Shown here: positions 9,089 to 57,095 of the stretch, one piece after another
Numbering within the stretch: the stretch's first letter is position 1
Layout of the letters: each line of letters starts with the position of its first letter
DNA from: Mustelus asterias
Lineage: Eukaryota
Assembly: GCF_964213995.1 (NCBI RefSeq)
Contig: NC_135825.1
Location: 24,118,001 to 24,182,000, forward strand
Length of the DNA stretch: 64,000 nt
Reading direction: 5' to 3'
The notes under the pieces: generated by a model
Databases searched by the model: none
The model's input: the letters and a program-made list of their open reading frames with translations, nothing else
What the model was told of the DNA's origin: nothing
Made by a program: the position numbers and the translations under genes

Positions 9089-11039
9089 TGTGGTGAACCA
9101 TAGATGGTTACCACTATGGGTACTGAACCATAGATGGTTACCACTATGGGTACTTGTACATATGTTACTCTTGTTACTGTTGGGGTTAGGGTTGGGGTGT
9201 TCCACCTGTTAGCATTGTTCTGTGGTACACTCCGTTTGGCTCCGCCTTCCTATAGGAGTATAAAGGTCACTGCACTTCCTAGTGACCCTTTAGTCTGGGA
9301 TAGTATTGTTAAGCAGTGTGCTCTATTCTTGTTGCGAATAAAAGCCTTTATTTCCCGAGTACGATCTAGCCTCTCGAGTGAATTAATCGCGCATCAATTT
9401 TATTCGCAACAAATTTTGTTTTGAAAAGAAAAAATGGAGCAGATGCTGAAACCCGATCGGCTAACCTTAGATCCGCGTGCCGCTGGAGCGTCGAACACTT
9501 TCGACCATTGGTTGAAGTGTTTCCAGGATTATATCGACGCCTCAACAGCAGTCCAAAATGAAGCCGACAGATTGCGGGTCCTCCACGCAAGGGTAAGCGA
9601 CACTGTGTATGCAACAATCCGTGATTCCCAAGATTACAAACCGCCAAACGAAATCCATGCTCGTCACTTATTAGCCACTCGACGGCGGCAGCCCGGCGAA
9701 ACGACGGCACAGTACCTGCGCGAACTTCAGCAGCTAGCCAGAGCCTGCAATTGCAAGCCAGTGTCGGCTACTCAGTACACTAACGATCTGATCCGAGATG
9801 CGTTCGTGGCGGGAATCGGCTCATCCTATATCCACCTGCGGCTGTTAGAGCAAGGTAACTTGGACCTAGCTAAGACGGTAGAATTGGCTGATGCGATGGA
9901 AACAGCCTCCAGAAGTCTTGAAACTTACCCCACCGACCACGTGGGAACATCGTGGCAAGTACAGCCACCGACTCAGCTGTACCCGGCGGCTCCTAGGAAC
10001 TGCGCGATCGTGCTTTCAACCTCGGACCTGACGGCAGCGGCAGCTCCAGGAGGCCCATGGTGCTATTTCTGTGGATTGGCGAAGCACCCTCGCCAGAGAT
10101 GTCCAGCCAGGACGGTATTTTGCTCTGCTTGTGGGAAGAAAGGGCACTATGCAAAAGTGTGCCGAGCAAAGCCCCCTTTGAAGCCAAGCAGTGCTGCGTG
10201 TGACTCCCCAGGATCCGTCTCCTCGTCTCCAGCTTCGTCGATGTCTTCAACCACGTGCGATTCACGGGCGCCGCCATTCCTGATGACGACGACGCAAGAC
10301 ACGTGCGACCTGCGGGTGCCGCCACTTTCAACGCCATCGACCACGTGCGATCCATGGGCGCAGCCATTTTGGTCGGCACTGGCCGCAGATGACCAGCAGG
10401 GGTCCTCGTCGTCGACCATCTCAGCTGCCTGCAGTTGCACTCGGGATCCAACAGTGGCGTCAATCATCCTGGACCAGGCCAAGCCTCACAGACTCGACAA
10501 GTCCATGATGGACATAGAGCTTGCCTGAGTCCAGGAGATTGTCGCCACCTCGAGGTCCACCCGTGTGTGAGGAACTGGAGGAGTCACTGGACACCACCTT
10601 GGAGAGAGGGACACCACGGTCACCAGAACCGGCACTACCGCCAGTGCTGCAGAGGTCGCAGAGATGGTGCGGACCTCCGATACGACTGAACTTGTGAATA
10701 TATGGACAGTTCGTACTGTTCTTTTTGCCCCACCGGCCTTTGTTTTTAAAGGAGGGGTGAGTGTGGTGAACCATAGATAGTTATCACTATGGGTACTTGT
10801 ACATATGTTACTCTTGTTACTGTTGGGGTTCGGGTTGGGGTGTTCCACCTGTTAGCATTGTTCTGTGGTACACTCCGTTTGGCTCCGCCTTCCTGTAGGA
10901 GTATAAAGGTCACTGCACTTCCTAGTGACCCTTTAGTCTGGGATAGTATTGTTAAGCAGTGTGCTCTATTCTTGTTGCGAATAAAAGCCTTTATTTCCCG
11001 AGTACAATCTAGCCTCTCGAGTGAATTAATCGCGCATCA
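9089..11039 (+). mobile_element. Internally deleted Gypsy LTR retrotransposon (gag only) with both LTRs
   Basis: LTRs 9089-9396 and 10762-11039 (TG...CA; 5 substitutions plus one 30-bp duplication by manual comparison). 5-bp TSD CTGTT at 9084-9088 and 11040-11044. Polypurine tract aaaggaggggtgag at 10748-10761. TATAAA and AATAAA in the LTR. Confidence 0.96.
9434..10528 (+). CDS. gag: Gypsy Gag with two zinc-knuckle-like motifs, truncated at the start of protease
   Basis: 364-aa ORF with ARHLLATRRRQPGET, IRDAFVAG, CYFCGLAKHPRQRC and CSACGKKGHYAKVC. Ends LDQAKPHRLDKSMMDIE before any protease active site. Followed by an integrase C-terminal tail remnant (LQRSQR..PPIRLNL*). Confidence 0.9.
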   Translation: MEQMLKPDRLTLDPRAAGASNTFDHWLKCFQDYIDASTAVQNEADRLRVLHARVSDTVYATIRDSQDYKPPNEIHARHLLATRRRQPGETTAQYLRELQQLARACNCKPVSATQYTNDLIRDAFVAGIGSSYIHLRLLEQGNLDLAKTVELADAMETASRSLETYPTDHVGTSWQVQPPTQLYPAAPRNCAIVLSTSDLTAAAAPGGPWCYFCGLAKHPRQRCPARTVFCSACGKKGHYAKVCRAKPPLKPSSAACDSPGSVSSSPASSMSSTTCDSRAPPFLMTTTQDTCDLRVPPLSTPSTTCDPWAQPFWSALAADDQQGSSSSTISAACSCTRDPTVASIILDQAKPHRLDKSMMDIELA

Positions 11040-22221: not shown

Positions 22222-23100
22222 ATGCCAGATTCACTCTTTAGGGCACTAGCTGGCCTATTTTGTAAGTAAAGATCTTAAATGTTACCAAGTGGAAGTATTT
22301 ATTAATCTGCCCATCCTCTTTGCTTCTGTTCATATTGGTTGTTCTGATCGTAAGTCGCTGACAGTAGATGTGATCCTATCTGATATGAGCTTTGTGAATC
22401 TGATGCTTGTACTTACTCGTGGTGGTGCACAAACCCTCACTACTCCTGAATTGAAAAATATGTTGGATGATAGGCTGCAGAATTGTAATCTACACTTACA
22501 GAATAGCGTATGTGTTAAATATGTTTTATGGACACTATAACTTCTAAATGTGCAATATAACTTTGGGCTCCCTTTGATGCTGTCTGGACTTTGAAAATGA
22601 CAATTTACATTGCTGGACCCACCTACATTTCATTGAGCCACACAGATACAGTCAGCAGTGAAAAGAAATCCAGAGTTTGGGGGAAACCAGAAAACTGCGG
22701 CTGAAAACAGAGCTTCTGAGGGACAAAAATAGAAAATGCTGGAAAATTTCAGCAAGTCTGACAGCATCTGTGGAGAGAGGATAAAGCCAGCGTTTCGAGT
22801 CTGGATGACCCTTTGTTCGAAACATTGGCTCTATTCTCTCTCCACAGATGCTGTCAGACCTGCTGAGGTTTTCCAGCATTTTCTGTTTTTGTTTCAGATT
22901 CCAGCATCTGCAGTATTTTGTCCAAAGCTTCTAAGGGTGTTGTCTCCTCAGTCGCATTGGATATTTCCGTTGTAATCAATCGGAGTACTTGGATTTACGT
23001 GCTGATTTTTCCTGATTGCAGGTTTGTAGGTTTCTTTCTCCCATTGCAATGCCCCGTTCACCCATTATTCATCATTTCATCCAGTAAAATGAATGCACTA
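22222..23100 (+). pseudogene. ora1: ORA1/V1R-type vomeronasal receptor pseudogene
   Basis: Collinear segments across frameshifts: INLPILFASVHIGCSDRKSLTVDVILSDMSFVNLMLVLTRGGAQTLTT..KNMLDD / GCRIVIYTYRIA / PFDAVWTLKMTIYIAGP / HRYSQQ*K..AAENRAS / KGVVSSVAL..INRSTWIYVL..HPLFIISSSK. These follow teleost ORA1 motifs as recalled (TRGVPQT, GCKVVIYTYRIA, FAALW..NMAVCIAAP, ETRAA, IWIYML, SPFLIISSN). Stops, deletions and an insertion are present. Confidence 0.85.
22723..22920. mobile_element. Fold-back element (probably Penelope-derived) inserted in the ORA1 pseudogene
   Basis: ~76-bp inverted arms (about 22723-22798 and 22817-22893). TSD agcttct(g/a)aggg at 22711-22722 and 22926-22937. Related pieces near 2520, 35170 and 40780. 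Confidence 0.75.
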
Positions 23101-25005
23101 CACAAGAGAAAGAGACTTGCTATCCAACCACAGAAATTTCACACAGGCATGAATATATTGCTGAATGGTCGCATCCCAGATAAAATCATAGAATCCCTAC
23201 AGTGCAGAAGGAGGCCATTTGGCCCATCGAGTCTGCACCGACCACAATCCCACCCAGGCCCTATTCCCGTAACCCCACATATTTACCCTGCTAATCCCCT
23301 GACACTAGGGTCAATTTAGCATGGCCAATCAACCTAACCTGCACATCTTTGGAGTGTGGGAGGAAACCAGAGCAGGCATGGGGAGAATGTGCAAACTCCA
23401 GTGACCCAAGGCCGGAATTGAACCCGTGTCGCTGGCGCTGTGAGGCAGCAGTGCTAACCATTGTGTCACCCCACAGTGCCTCAATCTATCTGAGATTTTC
23501 TGAGTATGGGATTGGCAGCCAGAAATTCATACTGTGGGGTTTTCCGGCCCTTTCTGCCAGTGGGACTTTTCTGCCCCATCAAAGGGAATCCTCAACGATG
23601 GGTTCCCCAATGGCAGAGCAGGCAAGCCGGACAAAACACCATGGATCTCGGCTGGGCTAGTCGATCCCGCCAGAAGCCAATAGTGTGATGAAATCTAAAT
23701 AAACCACAGTCCTAGTCAGAAACTAGAGAAGCAGCTTCTATTCTCCTCTATATCAACATGGGGGCAGGAGTAAGCTATTCAGCTTTTTGTGCCGTTCGGT
23801 TAGATCTGTACCTCAACTTGATCCAGAATGGGGAATGTGGCATTGTGGCCTTCCAGCAGAGAAGATTAAGAGGAGATTTGATAGATGTGTTTAAAAATCA
23901 GCAAGGGTTTAAATAGAGAAACTATTTCTTGTGGCTGATATCTCAAAGACAAAGGGGCACAGGTGACTTGCAAAAGAGGTGAAGCATGTTTTAGACAATG
24001 AGCAGGTAGGATTTAGCTTGCACTGCTGGGCAAGCTTATCCTGTTTCCTTGTGTTATTATGTCATCCTTCGAAAAGGATTTGAAAATGTAAGTTCTTAAA
24101 GGAGAAATTTCCTCAAAGTGAGTTATGTTAGAGGTGGGTATATAGAATTGCTTTTCACTGTGCATAATCCCCAGCTCTGCACTGCTCATGTTGGCACTGT
24201 TACACAGGTCCAGTTTAAAATCAATCCAGCCACTCAGTCAGTCATATTCCAATTCAGTTTTGGAAATTGTACTCAGTGGGGATCACCTTATGATTATCTC
24301 CTCTCAACTCAGAGTCTCAGAACATGAAACAAAAATTCAGCTGCATGTTTCTGAACCTACGTGTTCCAGGCAGGGCTTCACAAGGTAGAAATTCATGTAC
24401 AGAAGAGGCCATTCAGGTAATCATGTCTCTGCTAGCTCTTGGCAAGAGTAATCTAAAACCAATCTGCTGCAGGAATTCTGGAATTCAGTCAGAAGGTGGT
24501 GACCGATGGAGGGTCATTGTCTGAGGTTGGTGAGTTGTTTTCCCCAGAACAAGGTCGTTGAAAGGTTAACCCTACTTTCCCTTCTCCGTCAATGCTGCTT
24601 GACCTAAAAAGTTAAAGTTAAAGTTTATTTATTAGTCACAAGTAGGCTTACATTAACACTGCAATGAAGTTACTGTGAAATTCCCCTAGTCGCTACAGTC
24701 CGGCGCCTGTTCAGGTACACTGAGCAGGAACTTATCATGACCAATTCACCTAACCTGCACGTCTTTGGACTGACCTTCTGATTGTTCCCAGCAATTCCTG
24801 TTTTAGTTTAAAACTCTCTGTGACTTTATCTGCTTCAAATATTTGTACAACTTTCCCTTAAAAGATACAGCAGTGTTTTCTTCAGTGTAAAGCTGTCTAT
24901 ACTCCAACAGACCAATTATTAAGACATTTCTCCTCACTTCTCTTCAAGACCTAAATAGCAATTTTATATGATGATCTCTTTTCACTGCTTATTCAATTAA
25001 AACAC

Positions 25006-33541: not shown

Positions 33542-36486
33542 ATAGATGGGCTCTGGTTCGCATCTAAACCACCAGCTGAAGTATTCACATTGGCAGTGCT
33601 AACTCACAGTGACACTAACAGTCGCAATCAGTAGCGCTGCTTTGCGGATAGACTCATCATCACTGGTGAGGACACTGACTGGCTCACACAGGGACACTGG
33701 CACCTAAACAGCACGTCTTTCAGACTGCGGGAGGAAACCAGAGCAACCGGAGGAAACCCACGCAGACACAGGGAGAATGTGCAAACTCCACACAGACAGT
33801 GACCCAATTCCGGCATATAAGTTTGGTTTATTTATTAGTGTCACAAGTAGGCTTACATTAACAGTACAATGAATTTACTGTGAAAATAACAACTCACTGA
33901 GTGAAAACAAAATTCTGTCATCTCTCCCCTCTGGTCCATTTACCATTATCTTCAATCTTCAGGTGCCCTCTCACCAGAGGAGTTGCCCAAAAGGAAGTTT
34001 CATCTCATGGAAATGTAGCCCTTTTGTGAGAATGGAGATTACTGAGAAAAAAAATACACTCTAAATGAAACAACTACCACTGATACGTCACTGGGTTATT
34101 TGTGTTAGTCATACTGGTCACATCAGGCCTGGCAAGTTCCCAATAATCACATGCAAAACATATTGAAGAAATATTCAAATGACTTACCTGTCTTCCCGCC
34201 AGTTTCCAGCGTGGTCTGATCTCCGACTATTCTCTGGCTCTGGGAGATGCGCATGCATTCCCAGCGCATGCGCAAATCCCGGGAAAAGGCCAATGACGCG
34301 ATTCGACCAGACCCGCCAGAAAAGTTGCAGTTCGCGATGGGAGAATTGGGCCCATAGTTCTTGAGAAAATGAATGGTTATGGGAAACTTTGACCTAAAAT
34401 CTGCAGGCAACGATGGCGACAGGAGTGTGTGTGTGCGCGCGTGCGTGTGTGTGTATATACGGAGGGGGTGGGTGGGTGTGGTGTGGGGGGTTGTTGATGT
34501 AAGCTGTTAACATTCACCATCATCACACATCTGGAACTGTGTACAACATCAGGATATTGGCCATGCACTGGTTAACCCCGATACAAGCTGCGCTGTGGTT
34601 GAGTGCTAGAATCAGTGAGAGCTTTAACCCCAAATCACTGTCAGAAAAAACCCATAAATAGTTACACCTTATTTAATTAGATTAACTGGGCTTTTAACAG
34701 TGATCTGAGCAATTCTGCTGAAAAACAGATCTGGACATGAATTTCTTTTATATAGCTGGGAGTCCTGTTTGACGATTAATTAGTAGATATTTTAAAGCTA
34801 AATATTCCAGCTTTTTCAGAATATTGTGACCTCTAGCTTGGTCACAGGTGAATATGCCAATCTTTAATCTGCTCTGTGCAAGATTTTACTTCTTTTAATT
34901 CCCTGTTTGGGGGGGCAATGGAGTTGATGGGGCGCCGGGACTGAGGGGGGGTTGTGTGGTGGTCTGAAAAGCCTGCAATGTAATTGGCTGCTTGAGAGCC
35001 TGACATCACTTCCAGGTCCACACTGAGCATGCCCAGTGTGGAACACTGCAATCAGTTGCATGGGATCACTGCACAGCAAAGGAGATTAATTTCTCGATAA
35101 CAAGCACTAGTGATCTCTCAGTGGCGACTGCCCTTGCTTCATCGCTGGATGCAAAATCCATTAACTCTGTCTGTCTCTCTCTCTCTCTCCACAGATGCTG
35201 CCACGCCTGCTGAGTATTTTCAACAGTTTCTGTTTTTATTTCCACTGAGTTGTGCCCAAGATTAGAACCTTGGATGTGAAGTAAAAGTTTAAGTTCTATC
35301 AAACCAGGATACCTGAATGCAGGTCCAATTCTATGTTCTATTAAGAGCTGTAGGGACAATATCAAGGTTTTTCTTTTCAAAGCTAACCTCCATGACCTCC
35401 CATTATCGGAGTTTTTCTCGAGCTACTTTTAATTTCCCTGCCTTTTGTGAGTCGGCAGTATTTGTTCCTTTGTAAGGCTGCAGGATAACAGCAGTCAAAT
35501 CCTATCCACAATGGGCACCAGCTAAGTATTGGGAGCTTTCTTCTGAATTGCATTCAGCACATTGTCAAACATCTAAAAATAGGTTAACATTTGCAACAAA
35601 ACTGAGGCGTCTCTTTTGTAAGTTCTTGGCGATGAGATTCTGCTTCAGCCACTCAAAAGGGGCACGAATCCAACAATGGGGCCTTGATAAAATCTCCCGT
35701 GGATGCTTCAGAATCTAATTTCAAGCCAGATATTAAAAGATTTAGGGGTGAAAAGTCATATTCATCTGTGGAGGAGAGAACTTTGCGACTGGAAGCAGAG
35801 AGATGAAAAACCTGTCAGGTAGATTGAAGGATCAAAAGGAACAAGGGATGGTAAAAATAAATAAATATTGTTTGGAATCCCTGAAGGGCAGAAGGAATTT
35901 TTAATGTCAGATTTTTTTTTAAAGCTTACGCACTTTGTTGTTGATTCATGAGAAAGGAACCCTGTCTAACTTGCATTTGAAGGAAGAAGCGAGTTGAAGA
36001 AGAAACCTGCTCAACTCCTTGCGTGTCCTAATTAATGGATTACAGAGCGAGAGGAAACATCTACAGTGTGAAGACAGACACAAGAGAGACTGCTTCAGAA
36101 GAGGAGCCATTTTTATTAACTCTCTGATCTCTCAGTTCAAACTCAGAAGAATTGTAAACAATATGATCGAACGAAGAAGCAATACCGCAACCTGGATTGA
36201 TCTCTAAGTTGTCTCTCCTGTCGGATTCTGAGTGCTCTGCAGGTTTTTAACATGCACCAACACGGATGTCAGATGTTAAAAACTTGTTGTGGGTTTTAAG
36301 GCAATATGATATGGTTCAGACCTTTCACGGATTTTAAAGTTTAAACGATCAAACATTTTATTTCTTTAGTGCATAGCGCAAGAGCAAGTTAATACAGCAG
36401 CAGAACAATTCAGCAAAAAAACATTTCTTTACCTGGCAGGCATTAATGAGGATCTTAGAATCCTAGAATCTATTTTAGCATGAGTA

Positions 36487-56012: not shown

Positions 56013-56168
56013 TCATGACACATTGGTTGTCTTTATGACTTTAGCAATGCTGTTCGGATCCTTGCAGATACCAAAGTTGGTGTTTGTTATTGAACCAATG
56101 ATGGATTTATCACCGTTACACCTCAGACCATTTTGACAGGGGCATTTGTAATAGACATTATACAGGAG
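56013..56168 (-). CDS. CLPS: Colipase exon 3 (to stop codon)
   Basis: Acceptor ttctcctttcag, then LLYNVYYKCPCQNGLRCNGDKSIIGSITNTNFGICKDPNSIAKVIKTTNVS*. Contains the YYKCPC and GSITNTNFGIC signatures. Spliced protein is 119 aa with 10 Cys in the mature part. Confidence 0.96.
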   Translation of the reverse strand, partial: LLYNVYYKCPCQNGLRCNGDKSIIGSITNTNFGICKDPNSIAKVIKTTNVS

Positions 56169-56972
56169 CTGAAAGGAGAAACACAGTTTCAATATTTCCT
56201 CAATTGCATAAATAGGCTCAGGAAATCAGTGTTTCTAGGATTGGAGTCATTTACTTTTTTTTTAAGTGAATCTGGGATTGCTGCAGGTCAAGATTGCGTA
56301 ACCATAAATCAAATTTAATCATCATTACAGGCAGTGCAATACCATAATAATAGTTGGATTTGTTTGAACAAGGCAAAGATTGGCAGCAAATCTAATCGTA
56401 TCTTTCACCGTGCCCCCACCCCACTATTGCCAAACCAAAGAATGGAATAGTAGGGAAGTTCTCCCTGGTGTACGGGCAATATTTATCCTGAGTCACCAAA
56501 ACTGGTCTTATCGCATTGCTACTTGTGGGATCTGGCTGTTTGTGAACTGAGAGCCGCACTGTGCACATTGCAACACCTCAAAATACTTAATAGGCTCTAA
56601 AGCACTTGGAAGCATCCTGAGGTTAAGGAAAATACTCCACAAATATAAACCTTCCCTTTTTAAAATTGTGAATTTGGAAGAAACTGATGGAGCAAGATTA
56701 CCAATAAAAAAATGTGCTTTACACAAGAACAGATATGGAATTTTTTACATTTATATAATGCATTATCTGTTATTTGCAGAATGAATGATATTTGGAATAT
56801 CGGGATTATTATAATGAAGGTGAATAGCTTTCTGCTGCAATAATAAGCAGCAAAGAGACCTCGGTAATGCAATGATGCAGCGATCGGAATAAATTTTTCC
56901 ATTTATGTTTGGATCCCACCAATGGCTGATAAAATAACTAAAGTGAAGGTCACTTTAAAATTGAGTACTTAC

Positions 56973-57095
56973 ATGATTTGAGCATTGGTTTCCTTCAGCA
57001 CCTTTATCAAAACACCTTGCAAGACTCAGTCCAGTTTCTCTCTGGCAGCACCGACTCTTGCATTGAAAGCTTCCAACACAGAGCTCTCCAGCATT
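56973..57095 (-). CDS. CLPS: Colipase exon 2
   Basis: Acceptor ttatctttttaaaag, 123 nt in phase 0, NAGELCVGSFQCKSRCCQRETGLSLARCFDKGAEGNQCSNH, donor GTAAGT. Colipase GELC..S.QCKS.CC...GL.LARC pattern. Confidence 0.96.

What the first reader, a model, noticed from the sequence alone, without database searches (positions are those of the whole stretch)
22222..23100. Fossil ORA1 (V1R1) receptor in a shark-like genome
Seen: collinear decayed 7TM segments with ORA1-type rather than ORA2-type motifs (LTRGxxQT, VIYTYRIA, WIYxL, FIISS). There are frameshifts, deletions in TM3 and ECL2-TM5, and a TSD-flanked insertion before TM6. My unverified recollection is that ora1 is reported missing from chondrichthyan repertoires. 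If so, this relic would show it was present and later lost, and would mark its locus about 33 kb from CLPS. No ORF-track entry reveals the whole gene.
Basis: partly seen in the sequence, partly recalled or inferred. Interest (0 to 1): 0.75.

Follow-up and report, generated by a model that had tools for sequence, protein, structure and literature searches.

The report
Dead ora1 smell-receptor gene in sharks
This is the broken remnant of a smell-receptor gene, most likely ora1 (the fish relative of mammalian pheromone receptors), facing its intact partner ora2 and carrying the same damage in related species, so it likely records one old gene loss that was already inferred but seems not to have been seen as DNA.

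Summary
Window 22304-23088 (+) is a decayed, single-copy V1R/ORA gene. It has frameshifts, stops, two large deletions and a 200-bp repeat insertion with a 15-bp target duplication. Frameshift-aware scores against ORA1 proteins are 124-191, against a null of 33±4. Two careful trees place it in the ORA1 + tetrapod-V1R clade (100/94, 98/92); grouping with ORA2 is weakly rejected (p-AU 0.04). Intact ora2 lies about 126 kb upstream, head-to-head, and no intact ora1 was found in this genome. All 7 runs of other sources laid on it share the deletions and the insertion at 3-9% divergence, and the changes look neutral.

ora1 is reported in elephant shark, and its loss in catshark was inferred in 2019. 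What seems new is the physical relic, which falls below the E<1e-10 cut-off of the 2023 survey. That survey's supplement also lists the elephant shark copy as broken and gives the name ORA1 to a non-orthologous catshark gene. Verdict: a real unitary pseudogene of modest interest.

The parts
22304..22471 (+). Relic: end of TM1, ICL1, TM2, ECL1 (56 codons, open)
   Evidence: 44-46% identity to ORA1 proteins P0123 and P0129; Pfam V1R E 0.024, 14.3 bits, below the cut-off of 25
22473..22508 (+). Relic: start of TM3 (GCRIVIYTYRIA), after a frameshift at 22472
   Evidence: no indel at 22472 in the 5 other runs whose gaps are fully listed
22509..22569 (+). Garbled remainder of TM3-ICL2, about 19 codons short, with a TAA at 22558-22560; left out of the tree
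   Evidence: the short pieces placed out of order
22570..22620 (+). Relic: TM4 up to IAGP, followed by a deletion of about 53 codons (ECL2 and most of TM5)
   Evidence: piece score ORA1 38.8, ORA2 10.4, others 3.3; the missing part was not found within 17-27 kb of the window
22621..22722 (+). Relic: end of TM5 and ICL3, with two frameshifts and a TGA at 22659-22661; ends in the 5' copy of the target duplication (22708-22722)
22723..22922 (.). 200-bp high-copy repeat insertion with 76-nt inverted arms; possibly a Penelope-like element fragment (not established)
   Evidence: tens of thousands of contigs per run lie on it; left junction shared by 7 of 7 other runs
22923..23088 (+). 3' copy of the target duplication (22923-22937), then TM6, shortened ECL3 and TM7, with a TAG at 23027-23029 and frameshifts
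23089..23140 (+). Possible remnant of the C-terminal tail (weak)
   Evidence: extension of the alignments; not used in trees
56013..57095 (-). CLPS (colipase), two coding exons; a neighbour, tail-to-tail with the relic

Best explanation
This is a broken, single-copy V1R/ORA receptor gene, most likely the shark's own ora1, which likely lost function once in an ancestor of this shark group and has decayed without selection since. Shown: it cannot encode a seven-helix receptor (about half the residues are gone, with three stops, several frameshifts and an insertion); it faces intact ora2 head-to-head about 126 kb away; and related genomes share its large lesions. Inferred: it is the orthologue of ora1 and not of an ora7/8-type paralogue; it is a unitary pseudogene, so this shark has no working ORA1; and the loss is several times older than the deepest split sampled. 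Which lesion came first is unknown.
For: Scores: ORA1 list n=121, mean 153.5 (124-191); ORA2 list n=120, mean 85 (65-137); other representatives n=153, mean 80, whose best (150, P0165) is a 181-aa paddlefish protein that I did not place in a tree. Diagnostic columns: 10 ORA1 state, 3 ORA2 state, 9 neither, of 22. Trees with 156 relic residues: inside the ORA1 + tetrapod V1R clade, 100/94 under LG+G4 and 98/92 under LG+C20. AU test: relic+ORA2 p 0.040, relic+ORA1 p 0.44. Intact ora2 at G000:C25:24013667-24014524 (-), 94% identical to Scyliorhinus torazame ORA2; elephant shark has the same pair 17.6 kb apart on one scaffold. Genome searches with Pfam V1R and with coelacanth ORA1 found ora2, an ora3/ora4-type pair, a fourth distant gene and the relic, but no intact ora1; the relic's DNA is single-copy. 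All 7 other runs laid (six organism labels, one unlabelled) hold it at 3.4-9.3% difference with the same big deletions and insertion junction, plus private frameshifts. Differences to run X9 fall 14/5/9 on codon positions 1/2/3, n=28.
Against: A quick tree with only 108 residues left the relic unplaced outside ORA2, nearest by path to ORA1. AU tests reject the other ORA1/2-clade placements weakly or not at all (p 0.049, 0.081, 0.104, 0.089), and the ORA2 rejection is marginal. The best fragment is below Pfam's cut-off. This genome's own ORA2 scores 0.40 identity over the relic's columns, level with the weakest ORA1 (0.39). Genome searches score only the best candidates, and the assembly may be incomplete. 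No chondrichthyan ORA1 protein was in the tree.
Confidence: 0.88

Rival explanations
1. The relic is an ora7/ora8-type paralogue. These genes lie between ora1 and ora2 in gar and coelacanth and are reported absent from cartilaginous fish.
For: PMC4728799 places ora7-8b in this interval. AU tests do not firmly exclude the non-ORA1, non-ORA2 groups (p 0.049-0.104). The 108-residue quick tree left it unplaced.
Against: Both careful trees put it in the ORA1 clade. The TM4 and TM7 pieces score 38.8 and 26.9 against ORA1 versus 3.3 and 10.9 against these groups. The eight highest identities are all to ORA1 proteins. By eye it shares AENRA and IISS.K with the elephant shark ora1-like sequence.
Confidence: 0.06
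2. It is a dead duplicate of ora1 and a working copy exists in an unassembled part of the genome.
For: Searches in G000 give lower bounds; the assembly has 5313 contigs.
Against: Two protein-level searches found no intact ora1. The relic occupies the expected position facing ora2. No chondrichthyan is among the 120 listed of 205 ORA1 hits; all 36 unnamed ones are at least 83% identical to named teleost proteins. The WIYM codon string occurs once in the 2023 survey's supplement, in the elephant shark pseudogene.
Confidence: 0.03
3. It is a decayed inverted duplicate of the neighbouring ora2.
For: It lies near ora2, and this genome's own ORA2 is the best non-ORA1 match (137, P0001; 0.40 identity).
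Against: ORA1-specific motifs are present that occur in 0 of 120 ORA2 proteins; 10 versus 3 diagnostic columns; AU p 0.04. DNA similarity to own ora2 is limited to two short patches.
Confidence: 0.03

Closest known systems
ORA1 of bony fishes (zebrafish ORA1, receptor for p-hydroxyphenylacetic acid; PMC4594460, passages)
   Same: Same clade, same diagnostic motifs, no sign of introns, head-to-head with ora2.
   Different: Broken beyond function; about 126 kb from ora2, versus about 1-3 kb in teleosts (PMC4853444).
Elephant shark (Callorhinchus milii) ora1
   Same: Beside ora2 on one scaffold (17.6 kb); by eye the closest sequence seen, sharing AENRA and IISS.K.
   Different: Counted as a gene in PMC6368271 and PMC4728799, but listed with a stop and a frameshift in the PMC10116579 supplement. 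Its 678 listed bases read nearly continuously by eye, so any damage is slight or recent, or is an assembly error.
Catshark gene named 'ORA1' in PMC10116579 (LR744032.1:34570370-34571338)
   Same: The name only.
   Different: By eye it is the orthologue of L003 here. L003 falls outside the ORA1/ORA2 clade at 100/100 and lies on another contig; the catshark gene is on another chromosome than its ora2.
Other unitary sensory pseudogenes of sharks (catshark opn5m and rgr2 in PMC11979771; white shark ora3-like in the PMC10116579 supplement)
   Same: A single-copy sensory receptor gene left as a relic.
   Different: This one is too decayed for the usual cut-off: best tblastn E 5e-7 at genome scale, 0 of 117 ORA1 queries under 1e-10.

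Membership tests
V1R/ORA family (PF03402) | Pfam V1R score over the curated cut-off | tested here: inconclusive
   Best open fragment 14.3 bits, E 0.024, cut-off 25; the two other fragments had no V1R hit. The genome search with the family did not list the relic.
V1R/ORA family (PF03402) | Collinear homology to V1R receptors beyond chance | tested here: met
   Score 147 versus null maximum 46; eight pieces in order.
V1R/ORA family (PF03402) | Intact seven-helix reading frame | tested here: not met
   156 of about 310 residues aligned; stops, frameshifts and an insertion. It is a pseudogene of the family, not a receptor.
ORA1 orthologues | Groups with ORA1 in a tree | tested here: met
   100/94 and 98/92 for ORA1 + tetrapod V1R + relic; unplaced in the 108-residue quick tree. 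The ORA1 labels rest on P0316's name and on by-eye matches to gar and zebrafish ORA1, because NCBI's 'class A-like protein 1' is also used for ORA2.
ORA1 orthologues | ORA1-specific motifs | tested here: met
   LTRxxxQT, IYTYRI, IAGP and IISS present; 86-115 of 120 ORA1 versus 0-1 of 120 ORA2. Runs X4 and X15 read Met in WIYxL, the ORA1 state.
ORA1 orthologues | Head-to-head with ora2 | tested here: met
   ora2 on the - strand about 126 kb upstream, relic on +; no other V1R relic in 348 tile scans over 174 kb (next best 62, median 42).
ORA1 orthologues | Shared flanking genes (clps) with gar, coelacanth or elephant shark | not testable with these tools
   No vertebrate genomes besides G000; no paper held V1R + clps + synteny.
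ORA2 orthologues | Groups with ORA2 and has its motifs | tested here: not met
   p-AU 0.040; 3 of 22 diagnostic columns.
ORA7/ORA8-type paralogues | Groups with the other ORA1/2-clade genes of coelacanth, lungfish, bowfin and bichir | tested here: inconclusive
   Not the best tree, but p-AU 0.049-0.104; the references were not labelled ORA7/8 by any search.
ancV1R | Lies in a synuclein-gamma intron (recalled) and forms its own clade | tested here: not met
   Synuclein matches are on C1, C16 and C69, not C25. No sequence labelled ancV1R was available for the tree.
Unitary pseudogene | No working copy elsewhere; neutral change | tested here: met
   third positions 9 of 28, below 60% at p 0.003; private frameshifts in relatives.
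Penelope-like element (the insertion) | Minimal hammerhead core in its repeat; reverse transcriptase of a parent element | tested here: inconclusive
   Other copies continue into a CTGA.GA...GAAA string (loose ends), as described for such elements (PMC6155905, passages). Rfam found 0 matches in the window at gathering score. No parent element was sought.

The most novel reading that the evidence does not exclude
True ora1, the fish gene at the root of the mammalian V1R pheromone receptors, is dead in all cartilaginous fishes through two separate inactivations: an ancient one in sharks and rays, recorded by this relic, and a recent one in chimaeras. The published shark 'ORA1' is a different gene.
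Probability: 0.35. Interest if true: 0.55.

Novelty: new member of a known kind. Interest (0 to 1): 0.38.

Why it matters
ORA1 is the fish receptor from whose clade tetrapod V1Rs arose, and in zebrafish it detects a putative reproductive pheromone. Its status in sharks is muddled in print: lost in catshark (2019), then the name reused for another gene (2023 supplement). A relic at the right place, facing ora2, turns an argument from absence into a datable event. Its shared deletions and insertion can be scored across sharks and rays to find when the gene died. It also shows that standard receptor-mining cut-offs miss old losses. It does not reveal new biology or a new mechanism.

Tried and rejected
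1. A protein search with the best 80-aa fragment found nothing at E<=1 among 24 candidates; the fragment is too decayed for a word index.
2. Relics of ora7/8-type genes between ora2 and the window's end: none; the three next-best tiles (60-62) are short, unconvincing matches.
3. The missing N-terminus and ECL2-TM5 displaced nearby: not found, scores 26-39.
5. L003 as ancV1R: it is not near a synuclein locus. As the shark T2R1: unresolved (Pfam V1R 55.5 versus TAS2R 39.9 bits; Atlas nearest ORA3/4-like; no match in the T2R paper's supplement).
6. ora1-clps synteny in print: 0 papers; a looser search gave nothing relevant; PMC11817882 says the ora1/ora2 flanks are not conserved among three teleosts.
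7. Three short pieces (22509-22532, 22537-22557, 22621-22638) were dropped before the careful trees because their best placement was out of order.
8. Earlier findings of this scan: none.
9. No absolute date was attempted, because no rate calibration was at hand.

Full report
Observation. The six-frame translation shows V1R-type pieces on the + strand between 22304 and 23088. tblastn with ORA2 proteins found TM1-TM3 and TM6-TM7 pieces in order. A frameshift-aware alignment, skipping 22723-22937, scored 147 against coelacanth ORA1; 200 shuffles gave 33±4 (max 46) and 136 other window tiles gave at most 45. The insertion is 200 bp, has 76-nt inverted arms and sits between two 15-nt copies that agree at 13 places. 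Colipase exons lie about 33 kb downstream on the other strand.

Anatomy. Lesions in this copy: no alignable start or first half of TM1; a frameshift at 22472; a garbled TM3-ICL2 about 19 codons short with a TAA at 22558; about 53 codons missing after 22620; frameshifts near 22640 and 22684 with a TGA at 22659; the insertion just before TM6; a shortened ECL3, a TAG at 23027 and a frameshift near 23060. In all, 156 residues could be aligned, about half a receptor.

Which gene. Against all 394 proteins held, the ORA1 list (n=121) scored 124-191, mean 153.5; the ORA2 list (n=120) scored 65-137, mean 85; other representatives (n=153) had a mean of 80. Of 22 columns that separate ORA1 from ORA2, the relic has the ORA1 state in 10, the ORA2 state in 3 and neither in 9. 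The motifs LTRxxxQT, IYTYRI, IAGP and IISS occur in 86-115 of 120 ORA1 and 0-1 of 120 ORA2 proteins; WIYxL is not diagnostic. In trees of 46 rows the relic falls in the clade of ORA1 plus tetrapod V1Rs at 100/94 (LG+G4) and 98/92 (LG+C20). A quick tree with 108 residues left it unplaced. AU tests: with ORA2 p 0.040, with ORA1 p 0.44, with four other groups p 0.049-0.104. The tree evidence favours ORA1 but does not alone exclude an ora7/8-type origin. The 45 reference rows were chosen by me from the 394 proteins and four genes of this genome.

Genomic setting. The window is G000:C25:24118001-24182000. An intact V1R gene lies at C25:24013667-24014524 on the minus strand. It is 94% identical to Scyliorhinus torazame ORA2, 88% to white shark and 83-84% to carpet sharks, which suggests a carcharhiniform shark. 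It faces the relic head-to-head across about 126 kb whose long ORFs look like retroelements by eye. PMC4728799 (passages) reports this orientation for ora1/ora2 in teleosts, coelacanth and elephant shark. A scan of 174 kb with 15 references found no further V1R relic. Genome searches with Pfam V1R (3 matches) and coelacanth ORA1 (7 matches, 2 of them at E>1) found ora2, an ora3/ora4-type pair on C22, L003 on C1 and the relic, but no intact ora1. The relic's DNA is single-copy apart from one weak flank match.

Relatives. Of 21 runs listed, 8 were laid: X1, which may be this DNA's source, and 7 others (six organism labels and one unlabelled). All 7 hold the relic at 3.4-9.3% difference, with no long extra sequence at the large deletions, and all run into the insertion at the same left junction; three (X4, X15, X16) also show the right junction. 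In the 5 runs whose gaps are fully listed there is no indel at 22472, so that frameshift is shared. X12 and X16 have 4 and 10 unlisted gap letters. Private frameshifts occur in X4, X15, X17 and X18, among others. Of 39 listed differences to X9, 28 fall in old reading frames, at 14/5/9 by codon position, as expected without selection. A rough simulation gives about 0.2-0.25 neutral changes per site since loss if a live shark ORA1 were as close to ray-fin ORA1 as coelacanth's is; a more divergent starting point would lower this to roughly 0.12-0.15 (my inference). The deepest split sampled is about 0.05 per lineage, so the loss is likely several times older. This is uncalibrated.

What is known. 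PMC6368271 (passages): elephant shark has ORA1 and catshark lost it. So presence and later loss was already inferred. PMC10116579 (passages, one section, supplement parts 1, 100, 101, 268 and 269 and term searches) mined 11 genomes with TBLASTN E<1e-10 and lists three ORA pseudogenes. By eye these are an elephant shark ora1-like sequence flagged with a stop and a frameshift, 17.6 kb from its ora2; an elephant shark ora4-like one; and a white shark ora3-like one. None is an elasmobranch ora1. The relic would miss that cut-off: 0 of 117 ORA1 queries reach 1e-10, best 5e-7. The same supplement names a catshark gene ORA1 that by eye is the orthologue of L003, outside the ORA1/2 clade. I did not read all complete ORA sequences in that file; a search for six WIYM codon strings hit only the elephant shark pseudogene, and line breaks could hide others. 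No chondrichthyan is among the 120 listed of 205 ORA1 hits, but a divergent one could rank lower. Literature searches showed no report of a shark ora1 relic. The data files of PMC10869828 (passages only), figures, and subscription papers were not seen and may hold one. Also seen as passages: PMC11979771, PMC10691231 (supplement search), PMC12741414, PMC11817882, PMC4853444, PMC4594460 and PMC6155905. The elephant shark genome paper was not read.

Verdict. A real unitary pseudogene, most likely ora1 (0.88). It is a new member of a known kind. It confirms an inferred loss with physical evidence, exposes a naming error, and gives markers to date the loss. Interest 0.38. It would rise to about 0.55 if the elephant shark copy is truly broken and the lesions reach rays.

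Noticed in passing
L003:1453-2439 (G000:C1:176095229-176096098): Intact 328-aa receptor, by eye the orthologue of the catshark gene named 'ORA1' in PMC10116579. It groups with a frog 'V1R 96-like' protein (P0250) at 100/100, outside ORA1/2 and ORA3/4, and is not near a synuclein gene. Its identity (ORA5/6-type, T2R1 or another old V1R lineage) is open.
   Followed up: partly
PMC10116579 supplement S2, Callorhinchus milii MU249850.1:4050104-4050781: The elephant shark ora1-like sequence is flagged with a premature stop and a frameshift, although earlier papers count ORA1 as present in that species.
   Followed up: partly
window 22036 and about 390 bp upstream of ora2 (L011): CTCATCTG occurs upstream of both the relic and ora2, and TAATTG at window 22191. 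PMC4853444 names CATCTG, AATT and TAATTG for a conserved element between teleost ora1 and ora2. These are short motifs and may be chance; blastn showed no longer shared element there.
   Followed up: partly
window 22723-22922; related copies at 35172-35242 and 2525-2578: Very high-copy short repeat with an inverted arrangement; other copies carry a CTGA.GA...GAAA hammerhead-like core, suggesting a Penelope-like element.
   Followed up: partly
window 26370, 42066 (+) and 14530 (-): A second family of short repeats with a CTGA.GA...GAAA core; Rfam gave no match at gathering score.
   Followed up: no
window 56013-57095 (-): Two colipase (CLPS) coding exons, open in the parts scanned; the first exon was not located.
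   Followed up: partly
L002 and L007 (G000:C22:23606034 and 23640199): Intact ora4- and ora3-type genes 34 kb apart on the same strand, the head-to-tail order reported for elephant shark and coelacanth.
   Followed up: no
window 9425-10526 (+): A 367-codon open frame that looks by eye like a gag-type retroelement protein; not examined.
   Followed up: no
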